In this document: piece by piece, positions 5,617 through 20,209 of the stretch
How positions within the stretch are numbered: position 1 is the first letter of the stretch
How the letters are laid out: each line of letters opens with the position of its first letter
Sequence record: OK272486.1
Length of the DNA stretch: 50,987 bases
Source of the DNA: Escherichia phage JLBYU10
Reading direction: 5' to 3' (one strand)
Notes under the pieces: model-generated
Database searches by the model: none
The model's input: only the letters and a program-made list of their open reading frames with translations
What the model was told of the DNA's origin: nothing
Position numbers and translations under genes: made by a program

Positions 5617-6732
5617 ATGAAAAATGTAAAAATTACAGATGAGCAATTCAAGATCGAACGGGCGGCGGGTAAGACATATAAACAGATCGCTCAAGAGTAC
5701 GGAATGAATGTTAGAAGCGTCGAGCGTCGCGCGGCGCGTCTTGCAAAGCAAGGCCAGGTATCCACCATTGGAGCGCCTGGTTTTGGCGTTCATGGTGAGT
5801 CAGTAATGACTGACAAAGAAGGCAACATAATCCTAAAGTGGACTAAAACCAGCAAGGATAAAGAGCAATTAGAAGCATTAATGCGCGCAGCAATGGAGGC
5901 ATTTAGCGAGGAAGTGCCGCGATTAGATCCGGTTCCATTACAGGAGCGCGACTATAACGAAACGCTTTCCTTGTATCCGATCTTTGACATGCACTTAGGC
6001 GCTATGGCCCATAAGCACGAATGCGGCGAAAATTGGGATACTGCCACGGCAGAGCGCGTTATGAATAACTTTATCGACTATGCTTTAATGTGCGCACCGG
6101 ATAGCGAAAAGGCTGTCATCCTGATTGGTGGCGATATGCTGCATAGCGACGGCCTGGAGGCGGTTACACCTGCAAGCGGTCACGTACTGGATCAAGATAG
6201 TCGATATGCAAAATTGGTTTACGTTGCCATCCGTGCAATGCGACGCGCAATCAATAAAATGTTGTTAAAGCATAAACATGTTGAAGTCCAGATCGTAGAG
6301 GGAAATCATGACCAATCAGGAATGATTTGGCTGCGCGCAGCAATGGCGGCAGCATATGAAAACGAGCCGCGCGTTTACGTTGATGTTTCACCTCGCGTTG
6401 TGCACCACACGCAATACGGAAAAACTTTCCTTGCGTACCATCACGGGCACACAGTGCGTAAACCGGAGACTTTGCTAATGATGTGCGCGTCAGATTGGCG
6501 GGAGGACTTCGGAAACTCAAAAACGATGTATGCGCACGTAGGGCACTGGCATCACCAGACCGTGACAGAAACGTCGCTTGGCATCGTTGAGGTGCATAGC
6601 ACCCTGGCGGCAAAAGACGCATACGCCGCGCGCGGTGGCTGGAGATCTCGACGCCGTGCGGCGGTTATCATTTACGACAAAGAGCATGGAGAGGTGGGGA
6701 GATTTGTTCACTATCCAGAAATGATGAATTGA
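5617..6732 (+). CDS. calcineurin-like metallophosphoesterase with N-terminal HTH
   Basis: GDMLHSD and VEGNHD phosphoesterase-type motifs; N-terminal YKQIAQEYGMNVRSVERRAARL HTH-like; start chosen inside ORF 5467..6732. Confidence 0.45.
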   Translation: MKNVKITDEQFKIERAAGKTYKQIAQEYGMNVRSVERRAARLAKQGQVSTIGAPGFGVHGESVMTDKEGNIILKWTKTSKDKEQLEALMRAAMEAFSEEVPRLDPVPLQERDYNETLSLYPIFDMHLGAMAHKHECGENWDTATAERVMNNFIDYALMCAPDSEKAVILIGGDMLHSDGLEAVTPASGHVLDQDSRYAKLVYVAIRAMRRAINKMLLKHKHVEVQIVEGNHDQSGMIWLRAAMAAAYENEPRVYVDVSPRVVHHTQYGKTFLAYHHGHTVRKPETLLMMCASDWREDFGNSKTMYAHVGHWHHQTVTETSLGIVEVHSTLAAKDAYAARGGWRSRRRAAVIIYDKEHGEVGRFVHYPEMMN

Positions 6733-11089: not shown

Positions 11090-11133
11090 ATTATGCCAGG
11101 TTTTTACACCTGGCTTTTAACAAAAAGTGCTAT
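11090..11133 (-). promoter_or_regulatory. Motif-type promoter-like unit (minus): ATAGCACTTTTTGTTAAAAG, hairpin CCAGG..CCTGG, CATAAT
   Basis: Motif overlaps TAG stop of methyltransferase-like gene; fixed 22-bp spacer. Confidence 0.5.
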
Positions 11134-11870
11134 TTTGAATTTGACTCAAAGACGGCGCGAGCAAATCCGCGCGGAGTGAGGGAGCGTAGTTGCTTTGTTC
11201 TGGCAGACTTACCGCCTAAAAACTTCCAACCCCAAAAGAACATTACGCCATCATCATTGGATAACGGCTTGCGTTCCGGTTCGGTAAATCCGTTGCCGCA
11301 CCAGATAGCCGTCCTTTTAGTGTAGCCATCCTTTAGCGGCATTTTGGGGTGAAATGACCCATCGGATTCGTCCAAGTAGTTACCAAAATCGCGCGGATTG
11401 AAATAAAAATCCGGCTTGCGCCATAGCGTTGATAGTCGGCCTACCGGATTCTCAGCCATCCAGGGAACACCGAAATGATTTCCGACTTTTTCAACCATGA
11501 TTGCATTTTGGAGCGCGATATGAATATCGTCTTCGCTGCGCACATGCTTACTTCCTGATTGGGCGAACATGGTGCAGTCTGGAAAGCCAAATACAATATC
11601 AGGTTTTGGAATATCCATCTTAATGATGTTTTCAATGAAATTTTCATCAATCCACATATTCACATAATGCAGATTTTCATGCTTCATTTTGATGAAATAT
11701 TCTCCGTGATTGCCTTCGTCAGCGTTAAAGCAATAGCATTGATAACCAGCCTTCGCATATTCAAGCAACATGATTCCAGATCCATCAAACATTGAGTAAG
11801 CAACTTTATTTCCCATGATTTTTATGATACCCCAATTCATTCTCGGCTTTACGTTTTGCGGCAACAGCAT
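11130..11870 (-). CDS. DNA cytosine methyltransferase-like protein
   Basis: FDGSG (motif I-like), GFPDC (Pro-Cys-like), ENP motifs; start uncertain (overlaps HNH gene end). Confidence 0.5.
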   Translation of the reverse strand: MLLPQNVKPRMNWGIIKIMGNKVAYSMFDGSGIMLLEYAKAGYQCYCFNADEGNHGEYFIKMKHENLHYVNMWIDENFIENIIKMDIPKPDIVFGFPDCTMFAQSGSKHVRSEDDIHIALQNAIMVEKVGNHFGVPWMAENPVGRLSTLWRKPDFYFNPRDFGNYLDESDGSFHPKMPLKDGYTKRTAIWCGNGFTEPERKPLSNDDGVMFFWGWKFLGGKSARTKQLRSLTPRGFARAVFESNSK

Positions 11871-12333
11871 CTCCAAAACTGGAGAAACAACCTATATAAA
11901 TCCTACTTCCTCGCTTTCCGCTTCCAACCCTTACAATCCACTTGCCATGTTTATTTTTATGCACGCCTGGTATGCCACTTGTATTGTTTTTCTGCTTTGA
12001 TGTGTTTCGCATATTTCCTTTGTGATCTTTTAACTCAAAGTTTATTGCTCTGTTATCAGTCGTAATGTGATTTACGTGATCAACCTCCATTCCTTCCGGT
12101 ATAGGCCCATAGTGCATTTCATAGCATATTCTATGAACTTTCAGGTTATAACGTTTTCCGTTTACAGTAAGTGCGGTTTCTAAATATCTGCCACCACTAC
12201 CCAAAGAGCCAACCTCATTACCAGCATTACAAGCATTCCATTGTTTAACTCTTGATTGGTGAATATCTTTTCTTTCTTTCCAGAACAGCTTTCCGGTTTC
12301 TGGATTGTATGTAAAGTAATCGTGCCAATTCAT
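11806..12333 (-). CDS. HNH homing endonuclease (HNH plus AP2-like DNA-binding region)
   Basis: VDHVNHITTDNR HNH signature; GIPGV...KW...VG; paralogous to ORF at 39518..39994. Confidence 0.65.
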   Translation of the reverse strand: MNWHDYFTYNPETGKLFWKERKDIHQSRVKQWNACNAGNEVGSLGSGGRYLETALTVNGKRYNLKVHRICYEMHYGPIPEGMEVDHVNHITTDNRAINFELKDHKGNMRNTSKQKNNTSGIPGVHKNKHGKWIVRVGSGKRGSRIYIGCFSSFGDAVAAKRKAENELGYHKNHGK

Positions 12334-16172: not shown

Positions 16173-16201
16173 TTGACACATTAAATAGCATTATTGATAA
16201 T
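16173..16201 (+). promoter_or_regulatory. sigma70-type promoter (TTGACA, 17 bp, GATAAT)
   Basis: Canonical hexamers with 17-bp spacer ~30 bp upstream of first rightward early gene. Confidence 0.6.
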
Positions 16202-16964: not shown

Positions 16965-17003
16965 CACTTTTTGTTAAAACTCAAATGTGGGGCCAGGTAT
17001 AAT
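16961..17003 (+). promoter_or_regulatory. Motif-type promoter-like unit: ATAGCACTTTTTGTTAAAAC, hairpin GGGCC..GGCCC, TATAAT
   Basis: Motif overlaps TAG stop of lipoprotein gene; TATAAT in hairpin loop 21 bp after TTGTTA. Confidence 0.5.
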
Positions 17004-17033
17004 GGCCCTACTTTCAACGAAGGAGATAAAACG

Positions 17034-17255
17034 ATGTACATTAAAAAGAAGATGAAATGCGTTTCCGTTAACTATGCTTGCTCCGGCATGTTCAAGCCTG
17101 GCGAAATCTATACGGCGCAAAAACTGAAATCATCAACCGGATCTTTTTACGTGAGCAATAGTAAGGGGCATCGCATGTTCCTGAACGGCGGCGAAGGCAC
17201 TAAGGTTATGGCACACGCTATGGTAATGGCTGAATTTGAGGAAGTGAAACAATGA
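17034..17255 (+). CDS. small hypothetical protein, paralog A
   Basis: ORF 16971..17255 trimmed to Met with AAGGAGA RBS; shares FxLNGxEGTK..A...V.AEFExV with next ORF. Confidence 0.45.
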   Translation: MYIKKKMKCVSVNYACSGMFKPGEIYTAQKLKSSTGSFYVSNSKGHRMFLNGGEGTKVMAHAMVMAEFEEVKQ

Positions 17256-17485
17256 TCATTGAAAACAATTTTCTTTGCGTTAAGAGCAATAGACCATTCT
17301 TCACGCCTGGCAAGGTGTACCAGGGCAAGAAGGACAAAAGAGATGGTCACTCTTATCATGTTTACTGCAACAACGGATACAAGTTTTACCTTAACGGCGA
17401 GAATGGAACTAAGATCGTTGCGTTTGAAAACGTAGTTGCAGAGTTCGAGCAGGTTACAGACGCTGAATTTGAGGAAGTGCAATAA
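17252..17485 (+). CDS. small hypothetical protein, paralog B
   Basis: ORF track; tandem paralog of previous gene. Confidence 0.45.
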   Translation: MIIENNFLCVKSNRPFFTPGKVYQGKKDKRDGHSYHVYCNNGYKFYLNGENGTKIVAFENVVAEFEQVTDAEFEEVQ

Positions 17486-17667
17486 TGGATGATTTTACTC
17501 GGCTTGTTCTAGGCTGGATTGTTTTTCTTTTTGCGTGGCTTATCCACTGTGCGAGGCATAAATTCAGACTGAGCTATGATAATTCATTCGTTATGACCTG
17601 CTTCAGTATTCCAGGATGGATCATTTTGCTTGTGGCTACTGCTGAATACATCCATAAAACATTTTAA
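17485..17667 (+). CDS. small membrane protein
   Basis: ORF track; two hydrophobic segments. Confidence 0.4.
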   Translation: MDDFTRLVLGWIVFLFAWLIHCARHKFRLSYDNSFVMTCFSIPGWIILLVATAEYIHKTF

Positions 17668-17677
17668 GGATTAATAT

Positions 17678-18217
17678 ATGAAAAAATACACTTTCGAACT
17701 ATGGGGCAAGAAATACGAATTAATGACCAGCAAGCCGATTGTTGTGTGCGATCTCGACGGCACGCTATCGGACGGATCGCATCGTTTGCATTTGCTGCCA
17801 ACTGAAAACTTGCACCTTACGGAATCGTGGAGCGAATTTAACAGGGCCGCCGCCGGAGATTCACCGATTAAAAGCACGATCGCGGTTATTAACGGTTTAT
17901 GGGTGTCGGGATTTGCCATCGTCATCTTGACCGGACGCAGCGACGAGGTTCGCTATGAAACCTGCAAATGGTTGAATGAGAACGGCGTGAAGTTTGACGA
18001 AATCATCATGCGCCGCCAGGAGGACAACCGAAAGGATACTGTTATTAAAGAAGAAGCCTTGCGCGCTATTGGCCTGGACAACATTGTTTGCGCCTTTGAC
18101 GATTCGCCGAACGTGGTTAAGCACTTCCGCAGCTTGGGGATCACAACCTATCAGGTCACGGAATACGACAAGCCACACGCTCACCTGCAATCTCACGGCG
18201 TGGAGTGTTTAAAATGA
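17678..18217 (+). CDS. HAD-family phosphatase (polynucleotide 3'-phosphatase-like)
   Basis: DLDGTL motif I of HAD superfamily near N-terminus; further acidic motifs. Confidence 0.55.
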   Translation: MKKYTFELWGKKYELMTSKPIVVCDLDGTLSDGSHRLHLLPTENLHLTESWSEFNRAAAGDSPIKSTIAVINGLWVSGFAIVILTGRSDEVRYETCKWLNENGVKFDEIIMRRQEDNRKDTVIKEEALRAIGLDNIVCAFDDSPNVVKHFRSLGITTYQVTEYDKPHAHLQSHGVECLK

Positions 18218-18375
18218 CTTGGTTGCTTTTAATCTTTGTCACAAGTTACAACTCCGCAGCTATTGAGTCGCAGGAGTTCCACGGCGAATCAAGATGCCAG
18301 GAAGCGCGAAAGCAAGTTGTTCTCCACATGTCAGATAGTGGTAAGGATGTAACAGCGTTATGCGTTCGTAAATAG
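18214..18375 (+). CDS. small hypothetical protein (53 aa), not in ORF track
   Basis: Hand translation MTWLLLIFVTSYNSAAIESQEF...; ATGA overlap upstream; TAG stop embedded in motif. Confidence 0.3.
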   Translation: MTWLLLIFVTSYNSAAIESQEFHGESRCQEARKQVVLHMSDSGKDVTALCVRK

Positions 18376-18415
18376 CACTTTTTGCAAAAACAGATTATCG
18401 GGCTTGCGGTATAGT
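18372..18415 (+). promoter_or_regulatory. Motif-type promoter-like unit: ATAGCACTTTTTGCAAAAAC, hairpin GGGCTT..AAGCCC, TATAGT
   Basis: Motif overlaps TAG stop; -10-like hexamer in hairpin loop, 22-bp spacer. Confidence 0.5.
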
Positions 18416-18446
18416 AAGCCCATAAACAACAAACGAGGATTAAATC

Positions 18447-18710
18447 ATGGCTAACAAGATTGAGTTTTTTAAAGCGGTGGACGTTATCGACGGCGAGCCT
18501 AGCTTCTTTGCTATCCATTCTATTGACGGCAAGGATATTGGGTACGACGTTATCCGTCGAGATGGAATCTCAAAACTTAGTGACCTGGTAGGCTATATTG
18601 TGTCAAACGGAAAATGCGCATGGCCCGATTCGCCACGAGAGCCACGCCGCCGCAACATGATTGATCCTGAATTGCTTTACACGCTGGTAGTAGAGGGAGA
18701 AAATAAATGA
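18447..18710 (+). CDS. hypothetical protein
   Basis: ORF track; ACGAGGA RBS. Confidence 0.45.
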   Translation: MANKIEFFKAVDVIDGEPSFFAIHSIDGKDIGYDVIRRDGISKLSDLVGYIVSNGKCAWPDSPREPRRRNMIDPELLYTLVVEGENK

Positions 18711-18892
18711 TTTGGTTACTTGCTTTTTTGGTTGTTTTTCTTTACATTTCAGGCTTGTTTACGTTCCGTGCGTTGGTGAAATATTCTGACGCGACAGACA
18801 AGGACGATAAAATCGTTCTCGCTTTCTGGTTTGTTTGGGTATGGTTAGCAATTTACGAGATCATCAGAGACAAACAGAAATTTGAGTGGTGA
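18707..18892 (+). CDS. small membrane protein
   Basis: ORF track; hydrophobic. Confidence 0.4.
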   Translation: MIWLLAFLVVFLYISGLFTFRALVKYSDATDKDDKIVLAFWFVWVWLAIYEIIRDKQKFEW

Positions 18893-18950
18893 TTCTTGCT
18901 ATGGCGCATTCATGCAGTGCGCCATGTTGAGAAAACCTAAAGGGGGGGGA

Positions 18951-19103
18951 ATGATGCGTAACTTTGAAAAAATCATTACCAAAAAGAAGCGTCGCGGGTA
19001 CGATGAGCATGTGGAGCTTGTGAAAAAGCAACGCAAGAAGCGCAACGAAGACAAGAAGCGCGGGAAAAAAATTAATGCGATTTTTCGCTATGGAGATCAT
19101 TAA
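18951..19103 (+). CDS. small basic protein
   Basis: ORF 18882..19103 trimmed to Met after G-rich RBS; Lys/Arg-rich. Confidence 0.3.
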   Translation: MMRNFEKIITKKKRRGYDEHVELVKKQRKKRNEDKKRGKKINAIFRYGDH

Positions 19104-19105
19104 TC

Positions 19106-19696
19106 ATGAAACGAGACATTATCATCCTTAATGGGCCGCCAGGTTGCGGGAAGGACACTATTGCAGCTTACCTAACGGGCCATCGTTACCCAGCGGTCAA
19201 GGCGTCATTCAAACAGCCGATGTTCGATATTGCTTTTTCTATGCTGGGCGTGTACCGATACGATGAATTTATGGACCTGTACAACGACCGAGAGCAAAAA
19301 GAAAAGCCTCAAGTTATCTTAGGCGGCAAGTCACCTCGACAATTCATGATCTGGATTAGTGAGGATGTAATGAAGCCAGTTTTTGGGGAGCAGTATTTCG
19401 GGCGTCGAATGGTTGAAGAGATTCACGAGATGTACCGAGATTTGGCGGTTGTGATCAGTGATGGCGGATTCCCCGAAGAAATCAAGCCGCTTGTTAAGGC
19501 AGGGCATGAAGTGCATATTTGCCGATTGCATCGCGACGGCTTCACGTTTGCTGGCGATTCGAGAGACTACATTGACCTGAGCGGTTATCACTATCGAATC
19601 CATCACTATGACTTCCACTTGCAGGACGGCAAGCCGGAACTGGCTGTAAACGAGATCGTCAATACTGTCAAATGGAAGCACACACAGATTAAATAG
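19106..19696 (+). CDS. P-loop nucleotide/polynucleotide kinase-like protein
   Basis: Walker A GPPGCGKDT at N-terminus, adenylate-kinase-like. Confidence 0.55.
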   Translation: MKRDIIILNGPPGCGKDTIAAYLTGHRYPAVKASFKQPMFDIAFSMLGVYRYDEFMDLYNDREQKEKPQVILGGKSPRQFMIWISEDVMKPVFGEQYFGRRMVEEIHEMYRDLAVVISDGGFPEEIKPLVKAGHEVHICRLHRDGFTFAGDSRDYIDLSGYHYRIHHYDFHLQDGKPELAVNEIVNTVKWKHTQIK

Positions 19697-19736
19697 CACG
19701 AATTGCTAAACGCGGGGTTATCGGCCCCGCTATAAT
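19693..19736 (+). promoter_or_regulatory. Motif-type promoter-like unit (degenerate motif ATAGCACGAATTGCTAAAC), hairpin GCGGGG..CCCCGC, TATAAT
   Basis: Motif overlaps TAG stop of kinase gene; 22-bp spacer. Confidence 0.45.
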
Positions 19737-19766
19737 GCGCACATCAACAATCAAGAGGAAATCACA

Positions 19767-20147
19767 ATGGTTAACATCAGAAAAATTCGCGTCGGCACTA
19801 AATTCTTAGTTACTTACGCAATTCCAGATAGCGGAATGAAGAAGGGCCAGATTGTTAAGGTTGATAGCAAAAGATTCGGAATCCCTGGCATCAATGGCTA
19901 TCTAATCAATAAAGATCTTGGATTCGGCGGCTTCGCTATCCGTTCGCTTGATGGTATTGTTGCTACCCTCAAGCAAATCACTAACCATCGCGGCTGCCCA
20001 ATCAAGACGATTAAAGCGCCAACCAATTACGGCAAACTGGATAATCGTCGAATCCGCCGCCTGGCGCGTAACGCGTTAAAATTCCGTGGCGTAGGCGATG
20101 ATTTCTACTATGGTTACAAGAGGATCGCGCGCAATGCTGGGAAATAA
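19767..20147 (+). CDS. hypothetical protein
   Basis: ORF track. Confidence 0.45.
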   Translation: MVNIRKIRVGTKFLVTYAIPDSGMKKGQIVKVDSKRFGIPGINGYLINKDLGFGGFAIRSLDGIVATLKQITNHRGCPIKTIKAPTNYGKLDNRRIRRLARNALKFRGVGDDFYYGYKRIARNAGK

Positions 20148-20174
20148 CAATAACGCAACGAATCCTAAGCCACC

Positions 20175-20209
20175 TTTTGATTTTCATTCCGCAATGATTG
20201 CGGTATTAT
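20175..20209 (+). promoter_or_regulatory. Promoter-like unit without the motif: TTGATT, 21-bp spacer containing perfect palindrome CCGCAATGATTGCGG, TATTAT
   Basis: Same hairpin-in-spacer design as motif units. Confidence 0.35.

What the first reader, a model, noticed from the sequence alone, without database searches (positions are those of the whole stretch)
17678..19696. HAD phosphatase and P-loop kinase as separate genes: a split polynucleotide kinase/phosphatase?
A HAD-type phosphatase (DLDGTL; 17678..18217) and an adenylate-kinase-like P-loop protein (GPPGCGKDT; 19106..19696) lie ~1 kb apart in the early block. Together they mirror the two activities of phage polynucleotide kinase/phosphatase end-healing enzymes used to repair cleaved tRNA or DNA ends, but here in reversed order and as separate genes. 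No RNA ligase was recognised, so the partner activity is open.
Basis: inference. Interest (0 to 1): 0.5.

Follow-up and report, generated by a model that had tools for sequence, protein, structure and literature searches.

The report
Phage phosphatase plus dNMP kinase pair
Two early genes of a T1-like coliphage encode a stand-alone phosphatase related to the repair enzyme PNKP and a small kinase of the deoxynucleotide-kinase type; they are already annotated in relatives, are a conserved linked pair, and most likely handle DNA building blocks rather than forming a split RNA-repair enzyme.

Summary
Both ORFs are real and sit at the stated coordinates. The window is a nearly complete Warwickvirus (T1-like, Drexlerviridae) genome. 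Close relatives already annotate these genes as 'polynucleotide kinase' and 'dNMP kinase'.

- **The two genes are linked.** The phosphatase lies upstream of the kinase on the same strand in 73 of 80 related viral loci. In several phage families they are directly adjacent behind a metallophosphoesterase 'exonuclease', and in rare phages they are fused.
- **Other contexts point to nucleotide metabolism.** These include nrdB, ThyA/RNR, dUTPase, an analogous pairing of the kinase with an NT5C-type nucleotidase, and T5 Dmp and Dnk belonging to the same two families.

Best reading: a deoxynucleotide or DNA-end processing pair used for precursor supply. A non-orthologous DNA end-healing cassette remains possible. 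Interest is modest.

The parts
17678..18217 (+). Stand-alone PNKP-type HAD (DxDxT) phosphatase, 179 aa. Motif I DLDGT lies at nt 17750-17764. Catalytic and essential residues D25, D27, T29, R36, T85, R87, K124, D141 and D142 correspond to T4 Pnkp D165, D167, T169, R176, S211, R213, K258, D277 and D278. It has no kinase domain.
19106..19696 (+). Compact P-loop kinase of the T4 gp1 / T5 Dnk dNMP-kinase family, 196 aa. The P-loop GPPGCGKDT lies at nt 19133-19159. Invariant R78, D119 and E125 align with T5 R130/D170/E176 and T4 gp1 R132/D175/E181. It lacks the ~45-aa insert found in the T4 and T5 enzymes.
18205..19103 (+). Four small ORFs (56, 87, 61 and 63 aa) between the two genes. Function is unknown. 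This spacer is variable: relatives have 0 to ~2.2 kb here.
5617..6732 (+). phrog_704 'DNA repair exonuclease': a protein with metallophosphoesterase motifs and an N-terminal HTH. In other phage families it sits immediately next to the HAD-kinase pair. In this window it is dispersed about 11 kb away.
16173..16201 (+). Sigma-70-like promoter (TTGACA-17-GATAAT, 11 of 12 positions) at the head of the + strand block that contains both genes. This is weak evidence, because the number of promoter-like sites is not above the shuffled expectation.

Best explanation
These are two separate enzymes of a T1-like phage that work on deoxynucleotides and/or DNA ends to feed phage DNA synthesis. They are not the two halves of a PNKP RNA-repair enzyme.

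- **Gene 1** is a Mg2+-dependent DxDxT acyl-phosphatase of the PNKP phosphatase clade, with Asp25 as nucleophile and Asp27 as acid-base. By analogy with T4 Pnkp, it most likely removes 3'-phosphates from deoxynucleotides or DNA ends. A 5'-dNMPase activity like that of T5 Dmp, which belongs to the same PHROG, is not excluded.
- **Gene 2** is a compact dNMP kinase that converts dNMPs to dNDPs.
- **Linkage.** The two form a conserved, co-transcribed pair, always in the order phosphatase then kinase. In other phages the pair sits beside a metallophosphoesterase nuclease.
- **Proposed role.** T1-like phages have no DNA polymerase or dNTP-synthesis genes and re-use host DNA. The module probably processes host-DNA breakdown products into usable precursors and trims the dNMP pool.

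Shown here: family membership, folds, catalytic residues, linkage and gene contexts. Inferred: the substrates and the physiological role.
For: - **Phosphatase family:**
- **Nucleotide-metabolism contexts:**
  - The stand-alone HAD overlaps nrdB in a T4-like phage that also has PseT and RnlA.
  - The kinase lies between a ligase and dUTPase in phiEcoM-GJ1.
  - In Vequintavirus the kinase overlaps a non-orthologous NT5C-type deoxyribonucleotidase upstream of ThyA and NrdAB.
  - T5 encodes both families as Dmp (a 5'-dNMPase) and Dnk.
- **Linkage:** the HAD lies upstream on the same strand in 73 of 80 loci and is directly adjacent in 20. HAD-kinase fusions exist with a conserved linker.
- **Phage biology:** T1 and TLS degrade host DNA and re-use its nucleotides, and the genes responsible are unidentified (PMC11447400). 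A Drexlerviridae survey proposed that these two genes enhance nucleotide supply (PMC13164509).
- **Absent partner:** no ligase in the window.
Against: - No member of this compact kinase subfamily or of this stand-alone HAD clade has been assayed. I found no such paper.
- The kinase misses Pfam DNMK, and a locally built family HMM separates gp1/Dnk from PseT only weakly.
- A 3'-phosphatase has no obvious substrate if host DNA is degraded to 5'-dNMPs.
- A 5'-dNMPase fused to a dNMP kinase would be a futile cycle unless the two differ in specificity.
- The recurrent neighbours are an Mre11-like metallophosphoesterase and, in Autographiviridae, a DNA ligase. That combination fits DNA-end repair equally well.
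- Most of the synteny data come from one phage family, so part of the signal reflects shared descent.
Confidence: 0.55

Rival explanations
1. Non-orthologous DNA end-healing cassette. The HAD removes 3'-phosphates and the gp1-fold kinase has been recruited to phosphorylate DNA 5'-OH ends. Together with the Mre11-like metallophosphoesterase (and a DNA ligase where one is present, or host LigA otherwise), they repair or process broken phage DNA. Functionally this would be a PNKP built with a different kinase fold, in phosphatase-then-kinase order.
For: - The HAD's closest solved structures are polynucleotide 3'-phosphatases.
- A tight three-gene cassette (phrog_704 metallophosphoesterase, HAD, kinase) recurs in Drexlerviridae, Guernseyvirinae and Autographiviridae, and as a HAD-kinase fusion next to the same nuclease.
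- In two Autographiviridae the next gene is an ATP-dependent DNA ligase.
- The compact kinase lacks the ~45-aa insert of T4 gp1 and T5 Dnk, so its acceptor site could differ.
Against: - The kinase family contains two enzymes shown to act on dNMPs.
- Similarity to the Pnkp kinase domain does not extend beyond the P-loop, and 1LTQ is not among the top 60 fold matches.
- No conserved Asp follows strand 2, where polynucleotide kinases carry their general base (alignment A1; the placement of that general base is from my own knowledge).
- The kinase also pairs with an NT5C-type mononucleotidase next to ThyA and RNR.
- In T7-like genomes a ligase and a nucleotide kinase lie in the same replication block anyway (my own knowledge).
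- There is no ligase in this window.
Confidence: 0.2
2. One reading: a split PNKP that heals tRNA cleaved by host anticodon nucleases, with sealing done by an unrecognised or host ligase.
For: The phosphatase domain is PNKP-type, and such domains also remove 2',3'-cyclic phosphates (PMC3592404). The two genes are linked.
Against: - No RNA ligase is present in the window or in relatives.
- The kinase is dNMP-kinase type.
- Krischvirus keeps this HAD in its nrd operon in addition to a complete PseT-RnlA system.
- The ligases adjacent to the pair in other phages are DNA ligases.
Confidence: 0.05
3. No functional coupling. The two are independent accessory early genes, and their shared order in T1-like phages is inherited synteny.
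For: Each gene occurs without the other. The kinase occurs alone in Maculvirus and phiEcoM-GJ1, and the HAD alone after nrdB in Krischvirus. In this window 888 nt and four ORFs separate them. Most of the 80 loci examined belong to one phage family.
Against: The pair recurs as overlapping genes in at least three different phage families, including as an isolated island between tail genes in Kagunavirus. It also occurs as fusion proteins found on several independent metagenomic contigs; two representatives share only 37% identity yet keep a conserved linker.
Confidence: 0.15

Closest known systems
T4 polynucleotide kinase-phosphatase (PseT/Pnkp; PDB 1LTQ, 5UJ0) and Capnocytophaga Pnkp1 (4XRP)
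   Different: There is no fused PNK-type kinase domain. A ~10-residue insert follows motif I (HRLHLLPTENLHLTESW) that T4 lacks. The neighbouring kinase belongs to a different family, and there is no partner RNA ligase.
T4 gp1 (PDB 1DEK) and T5 Dnk deoxynucleoside monophosphate kinases
   Different: The window protein is 196 aa against 241-250 aa. It lacks the ~45-aa insert, is only 23-27% identical, and misses Pfam DNMK. Its substrate range is untested.
T5 Dmp, deoxynucleoside-5'-monophosphatase
   Same: Same PHROG (415) as the window HAD. Both share DLDGT(x4)HR and an insert after motif I.
   Different: Pairwise similarity is confined to the N-terminal third (E 0.013; hhalign probability 62%). 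The C-terminal core is closer to T4 Pnkp.
Yeast Tpp1 and mammalian PNKP (from my own knowledge, not tested here)
   Same: Tpp1 is a stand-alone DxDxT DNA 3'-phosphatase without a kinase. Mammalian PNKP has the phosphatase N-terminal to the kinase, the same order as this pair and its fusions.
   Different: Both are eukaryotic DNA-repair proteins, and the PNKP kinase domain is PNK-type rather than gp1-type.
Vequintavirus kinase + NT5C-type deoxyribonucleotidase pair
   Same: The same compact kinase family overlaps a HAD nucleotidase gene in a dNTP-synthesis block.
   Different: That HAD belongs to another family (PF06941), not HAD_PNKP.

Membership tests
Bifunctional T4-type PNKP | DxDxT HAD 3'-phosphatase domain with the catalytic Asp pair, Ser/Thr, Lys, Mg-binding Asp and two essential Arg residues | tested here: met
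Bifunctional T4-type PNKP | PNK-type P-loop 5'-kinase domain (N-terminal half of phrog_505 / AAA_33) | tested here: not met
Bifunctional T4-type PNKP | Kinase and phosphatase on one polypeptide | tested here: not met
   In the window they are separate ORFs 888 nt apart. Rare fusions exist elsewhere (P0257, P0387, P0262), but they carry the gp1-type kinase.
Bifunctional T4-type PNKP | Partner RNA ligase in the genome | tested here: not met
   No ligase is annotated in the 96%-identical phage tunus. No ligase domain was found in the window ORFs that were scanned.
dNMP kinase (T4 gp1 / T5 Dnk) | Sequence membership in the family that holds the characterised enzymes | tested here: met
   phrog_139 scores: window 1e-51, T5 Dnk 1.4e-51, T4 gp1 1.8e-65. 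BLASTP to T5 Dnk gives E 2e-6.
dNMP kinase (T4 gp1 / T5 Dnk) | Pfam DNMK (PF21448) match | tested here: not met
   There is no DNMK hit at E<=1. T4 gp1 scores 357.9 bits, and T5 Dnk scores 43.4 bits on its C-terminal part only.
dNMP kinase (T4 gp1 / T5 Dnk) | gp1-like fold | tested here: met
dNMP kinase (T4 gp1 / T5 Dnk) | ATP-dependent phosphorylation of dNMPs | not testable with these tools
   This requires an enzyme assay. No published assay of this subfamily was found.
T5 Dmp-type 5'-deoxyribonucleotidase | Close homology to Dmp over the full length, including the cap region | tested here: inconclusive
   Both fall in phrog_415. However, BLASTP gives only E 0.013 over 17 residues, and hhalign gives 62% probability over 67 N-terminal columns.

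The most novel reading that the evidence does not exclude
The phosphatase and kinase, together with the phrog_704 metallophosphoesterase, form a mobile three-gene DNA end-processing cassette. In it, a dNMP-kinase-fold protein has replaced the PNK-type kinase, giving a non-orthologous, reversed-order PNKP (fused in some phages, and followed by a DNA ligase in Autographiviridae). Such a cassette would heal 3'-P/5'-OH DNA breaks. Alternatively, it could carry out a new salvage route that turns 3'-phosphorylated breakdown products into dNDPs.
Probability: 0.2. Interest if true: 0.65.

Novelty: already known. Interest (0 to 1): 0.3.

Why it matters
As given, the finding is ordinary. Both genes are annotated in dozens of T1-like phage records and belong to known enzyme families.

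Three points go beyond that:
1. The widespread label 'polynucleotide kinase' for phrog_415 proteins is a misnomer. These proteins have no kinase domain, and the family also contains the T5 5'-dNMPase.
2. The phosphatase-kinase pair, often with a metallophosphoesterase nuclease, is a conserved and mobile module, and it is occasionally a fusion protein.
3. The genes responsible for T1's host-DNA breakdown and nucleotide re-use have never been identified. This trio is a concrete, testable candidate for part of that pathway.

Tried and rejected
- **PDB sequence searches, kinase:** single-sequence and profile searches gave only P-loop matches to AAA ATPases and NMP kinases, so they were uninformative.
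- **Pfam, kinase:** no family above threshold.
- **Local family HMM:** a profile built from 256 kinase homologues scored T5 Dnk at 23 bits, T4 gp1 at 15 and T4 PseT at 10. That separation is too weak to use as evidence.
- **Promoter and terminator scan:** site counts were not above the shuffled expectation, so the single-operon claim rests only on gene packing and one near-consensus promoter.
- **PDB searches, phrog_704 protein:** sequence and profile searches found nothing beyond a weak HTH match. Its nuclease nature rests on the PHROG label and the metallophosphoesterase motifs.
- **Literature:** searches for biochemical work on these T1-like proteins, or for an anti-defence role, found only genome-annotation statements.
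- **Start-codon artefact idea:** I considered whether the 236-aa homologues reflect a mis-called start and rejected it. They carry a C-terminal extension that this window lacks.
- **T5 Dmp as closest relative:** I considered this on the basis of shared PHROG membership, then downgraded it after pairwise and profile comparisons.

Full report
**What the window is.** The 50,987-bp window is an almost complete genome of a T1-like phage (Drexlerviridae, Tempevirinae, genus Warwickvirus). The region 17000-20200 is about 96% identical to Escherichia phage tunus and many sister phages. Their records already annotate the two genes as 'polynucleotide kinase' (or '3'-phosphatase, 5'-polynucleotide kinase', 'acid phosphatase') and as 'deoxynucleoside monophosphate kinase' (or 'ATP-binding protein', 'P-loop NTPase').

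**Observation.** Both ORFs exist exactly as described.
- ORF 17678-18217 (+, 179 aa) carries DLDGTL at residues 25-30.
- ORF 19106-19696 (+, 196 aa) carries GPPGCGKDT at residues 10-18.
- Both have Shine-Dalgarno-like sequences upstream.
- They are 888 nt apart, separated by four small ORFs of unknown function.
- They lie in a block of same-strand small genes headed by a near-consensus sigma-70 promoter at 16173-16201. The promoter scan as a whole is not above chance.
- No ligase was found. None is annotated in tunus, and no ligase domain appears in the larger non-structural ORFs scanned.

**The phosphatase.**
- It matches Pfam HAD_PNKP (PF25109) at 74.8 bits against a cut-off of 27.6.
- Its sequence hits in the PDB are the phosphatase domains of Pnkp1 (4XRP) and T4 Pnkp (1LTQ, 5UJ0).
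- Aligned with T4 PseT, it conserves D25/D27 (T4 Asp165 nucleophile and Asp167 acid-base), T85 (Ser211), K124 (Lys258), D141/D142 (Asp277/278), R36 and R87. The roles of the T4 residues are taken from PMC3592404.
- It has no kinase domain, so 'polynucleotide kinase' is a misnomer.
- The stand-alone clade carries a ~10-residue insert after motif I (HRLHLLPTENLHLTESW) that T4 lacks.
- The PHROG that holds it (415) also holds T5 Dmp, the 5'-deoxyribonucleotidase, at 3.6e-57. T4 PseT belongs to phrog_505.
- Direct comparison shows that Dmp resembles the window protein only in the motif I and insert region. The C-terminal core is closer to PseT.
- Whether the enzyme prefers 3' or 5' phosphates, and mononucleotides or polynucleotide ends, is therefore unresolved.
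- Stand-alone proteins of this type are common in phages.

**The kinase.**
- Pfam and PDB sequence searches see only the P-loop.
- PHROGs places it in phrog_139 at 1e-51, with T5 Dnk (1.4e-51) and T4 gp1 (1.8e-65), both characterised dNMP kinases.
- BLASTP to T5 Dnk gives E 2e-6 over 121 residues.
- hhalign to gp1 aligns 74 columns beyond the P-loop, whereas PseT aligns over 23 P-loop columns only.
- A multiple alignment shows collinear motifs: GKDT, an invariant Arg (R78), D119, E125 and a lid D-S/T motif. It also shows that this subfamily lacks the ~45-residue insert of the T4 and T5 enzymes.

**Linkage of the two genes.**
- Of 80 viral contigs carrying the kinase, 73 have the HAD gene 6-2171 nt upstream on the same strand, always in the order HAD then kinase. 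In 20 of them the two are directly adjacent.
- In Webervirus the two genes overlap by 4 nt, follow a phrog_704 'DNA repair exonuclease', and are followed by a terminator.
- The same tight trio occurs in several other settings:
  - as an island between tail genes in a Kagunavirus;
  - in two Autographiviridae, where an ATP-dependent DNA ligase follows;
  - as a genuine HAD-kinase fusion protein next to the same nuclease in metagenomic phages. These are P0257, P0387 and P0262, which share the linker motif GPELHG.
- In the window the nuclease homologue is at 5617-6732. It has the metallophosphoesterase motifs DxH, GDxxH, GNHD, HHGH and GHxHH, plus an N-terminal HTH.

**What the pair does.** Gene contexts outside Drexlerviridae favour nucleotide metabolism.
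- A T4-like Krischvirus that already has full PseT and RnlA keeps a 46%-identical stand-alone HAD overlapping the end of nrdB.
- The phiEcoM-GJ1 kinase lies between a DNA ligase and dUTPase.
- In Vequintavirus the kinase overlaps a different HAD, an NT5C-type 5'(3')-deoxyribonucleotidase (PF06941 above threshold), just upstream of ThyA and NrdAB.
- T5 carries both families as Dmp and Dnk.
- T1-type phages lack a DNA polymerase and degrade host DNA for re-use, and the responsible genes are unidentified (PMC11447400).
- A 2026 survey of Drexlerviridae suggested that these two genes extend the replication module to enhance nucleotide supply (PMC13164509).

I therefore favour a deoxynucleotide or DNA-end processing role in precursor supply (confidence 0.55). 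The main rival (0.2) is that the nuclease-phosphatase-kinase(-ligase) cassette is a DNA end-healing system with a recruited gp1-fold kinase. A tRNA-repair role is unlikely (0.05). Independent, uncoupled functions remain possible (0.15).

**Verdict.** The genes are already known and annotated. The pair and cassette architecture and the fusion proteins are a modest addition, and the substrates need biochemistry.

Noticed in passing
Alignment A1 (homologues P0181, P0186, P0213, P0216, P0222, P0229, P0232, P0235, P0238, P0240); absent from window 19106-19696: A subset of kinase homologues end in an acidic tail, DD(I)IPW, resembling the SSB C-terminal tip (DDDIPF). This hints at recruitment to SSB-binding partners or the replisome. 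The window's copy lacks the tail.
   Followed up: no
window 5617-6732 (+); L004 2341-3471, L098 2410-3540, L097 2297-3421, L094 1762-2886, L008 10482-11642: The phrog_704 'DNA repair exonuclease' (metallophosphoesterase motifs plus an N-terminal HTH) forms a tightly packed, apparently mobile three-gene cassette with the HAD and kinase in several phage families. In this window the three genes are dispersed. No solved structure matches it by sequence.
   Followed up: partly
L095 (Escherichia phage WalterGehring) 5998-7199: The compact kinase overlaps an NT5C-type HAD deoxyribonucleotidase gene annotated as hypothetical. ThyA and class I RNR follow. This is an analogous kinase-plus-nucleotidase pair built with a non-orthologous phosphatase.
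   Followed up: partly
PHROG 415 (all phage annotation pipelines that use it): The family label 'polynucleotide kinase' is misleading. Its members, including the window protein and T5 Dmp, are phosphatase-only HAD proteins. True PseT is phrog_505.
   Followed up: yes
window 18205-18375, compared with homologues P0001 and P0003 (236-237 aa): In many close relatives the HAD ORF continues into a 57-aa C-terminal extension. Here it stops at 179 aa and is followed by a different small ORF, so this is a variable junction.
   Followed up: partly
one search hit list: Fourteen records named 'Campylobacter phage' (host C. jejuni) match this T1-like coliphage DNA by megablast. They are probably mislabelled or contaminant records.
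   Followed up: no
window 11806-12333 (-): An HNH endonuclease ORF (Pfam HNH_3, 9.5e-15) overlaps the 5' end (N-terminal coding part) of the minus-strand DNA methyltransferase ORF at 11130-11876. It is likely a homing-type insertion.
   Followed up: no
window 17678-17737 (HAD residues 1-20): The window's HAD has a confidently predicted N-terminal beta-hairpin (residues 2-17, pLDDT ~94). This is absent from the Webervirus, Krischvirus and fusion versions, which start just before DxDGT.
   Followed up: no
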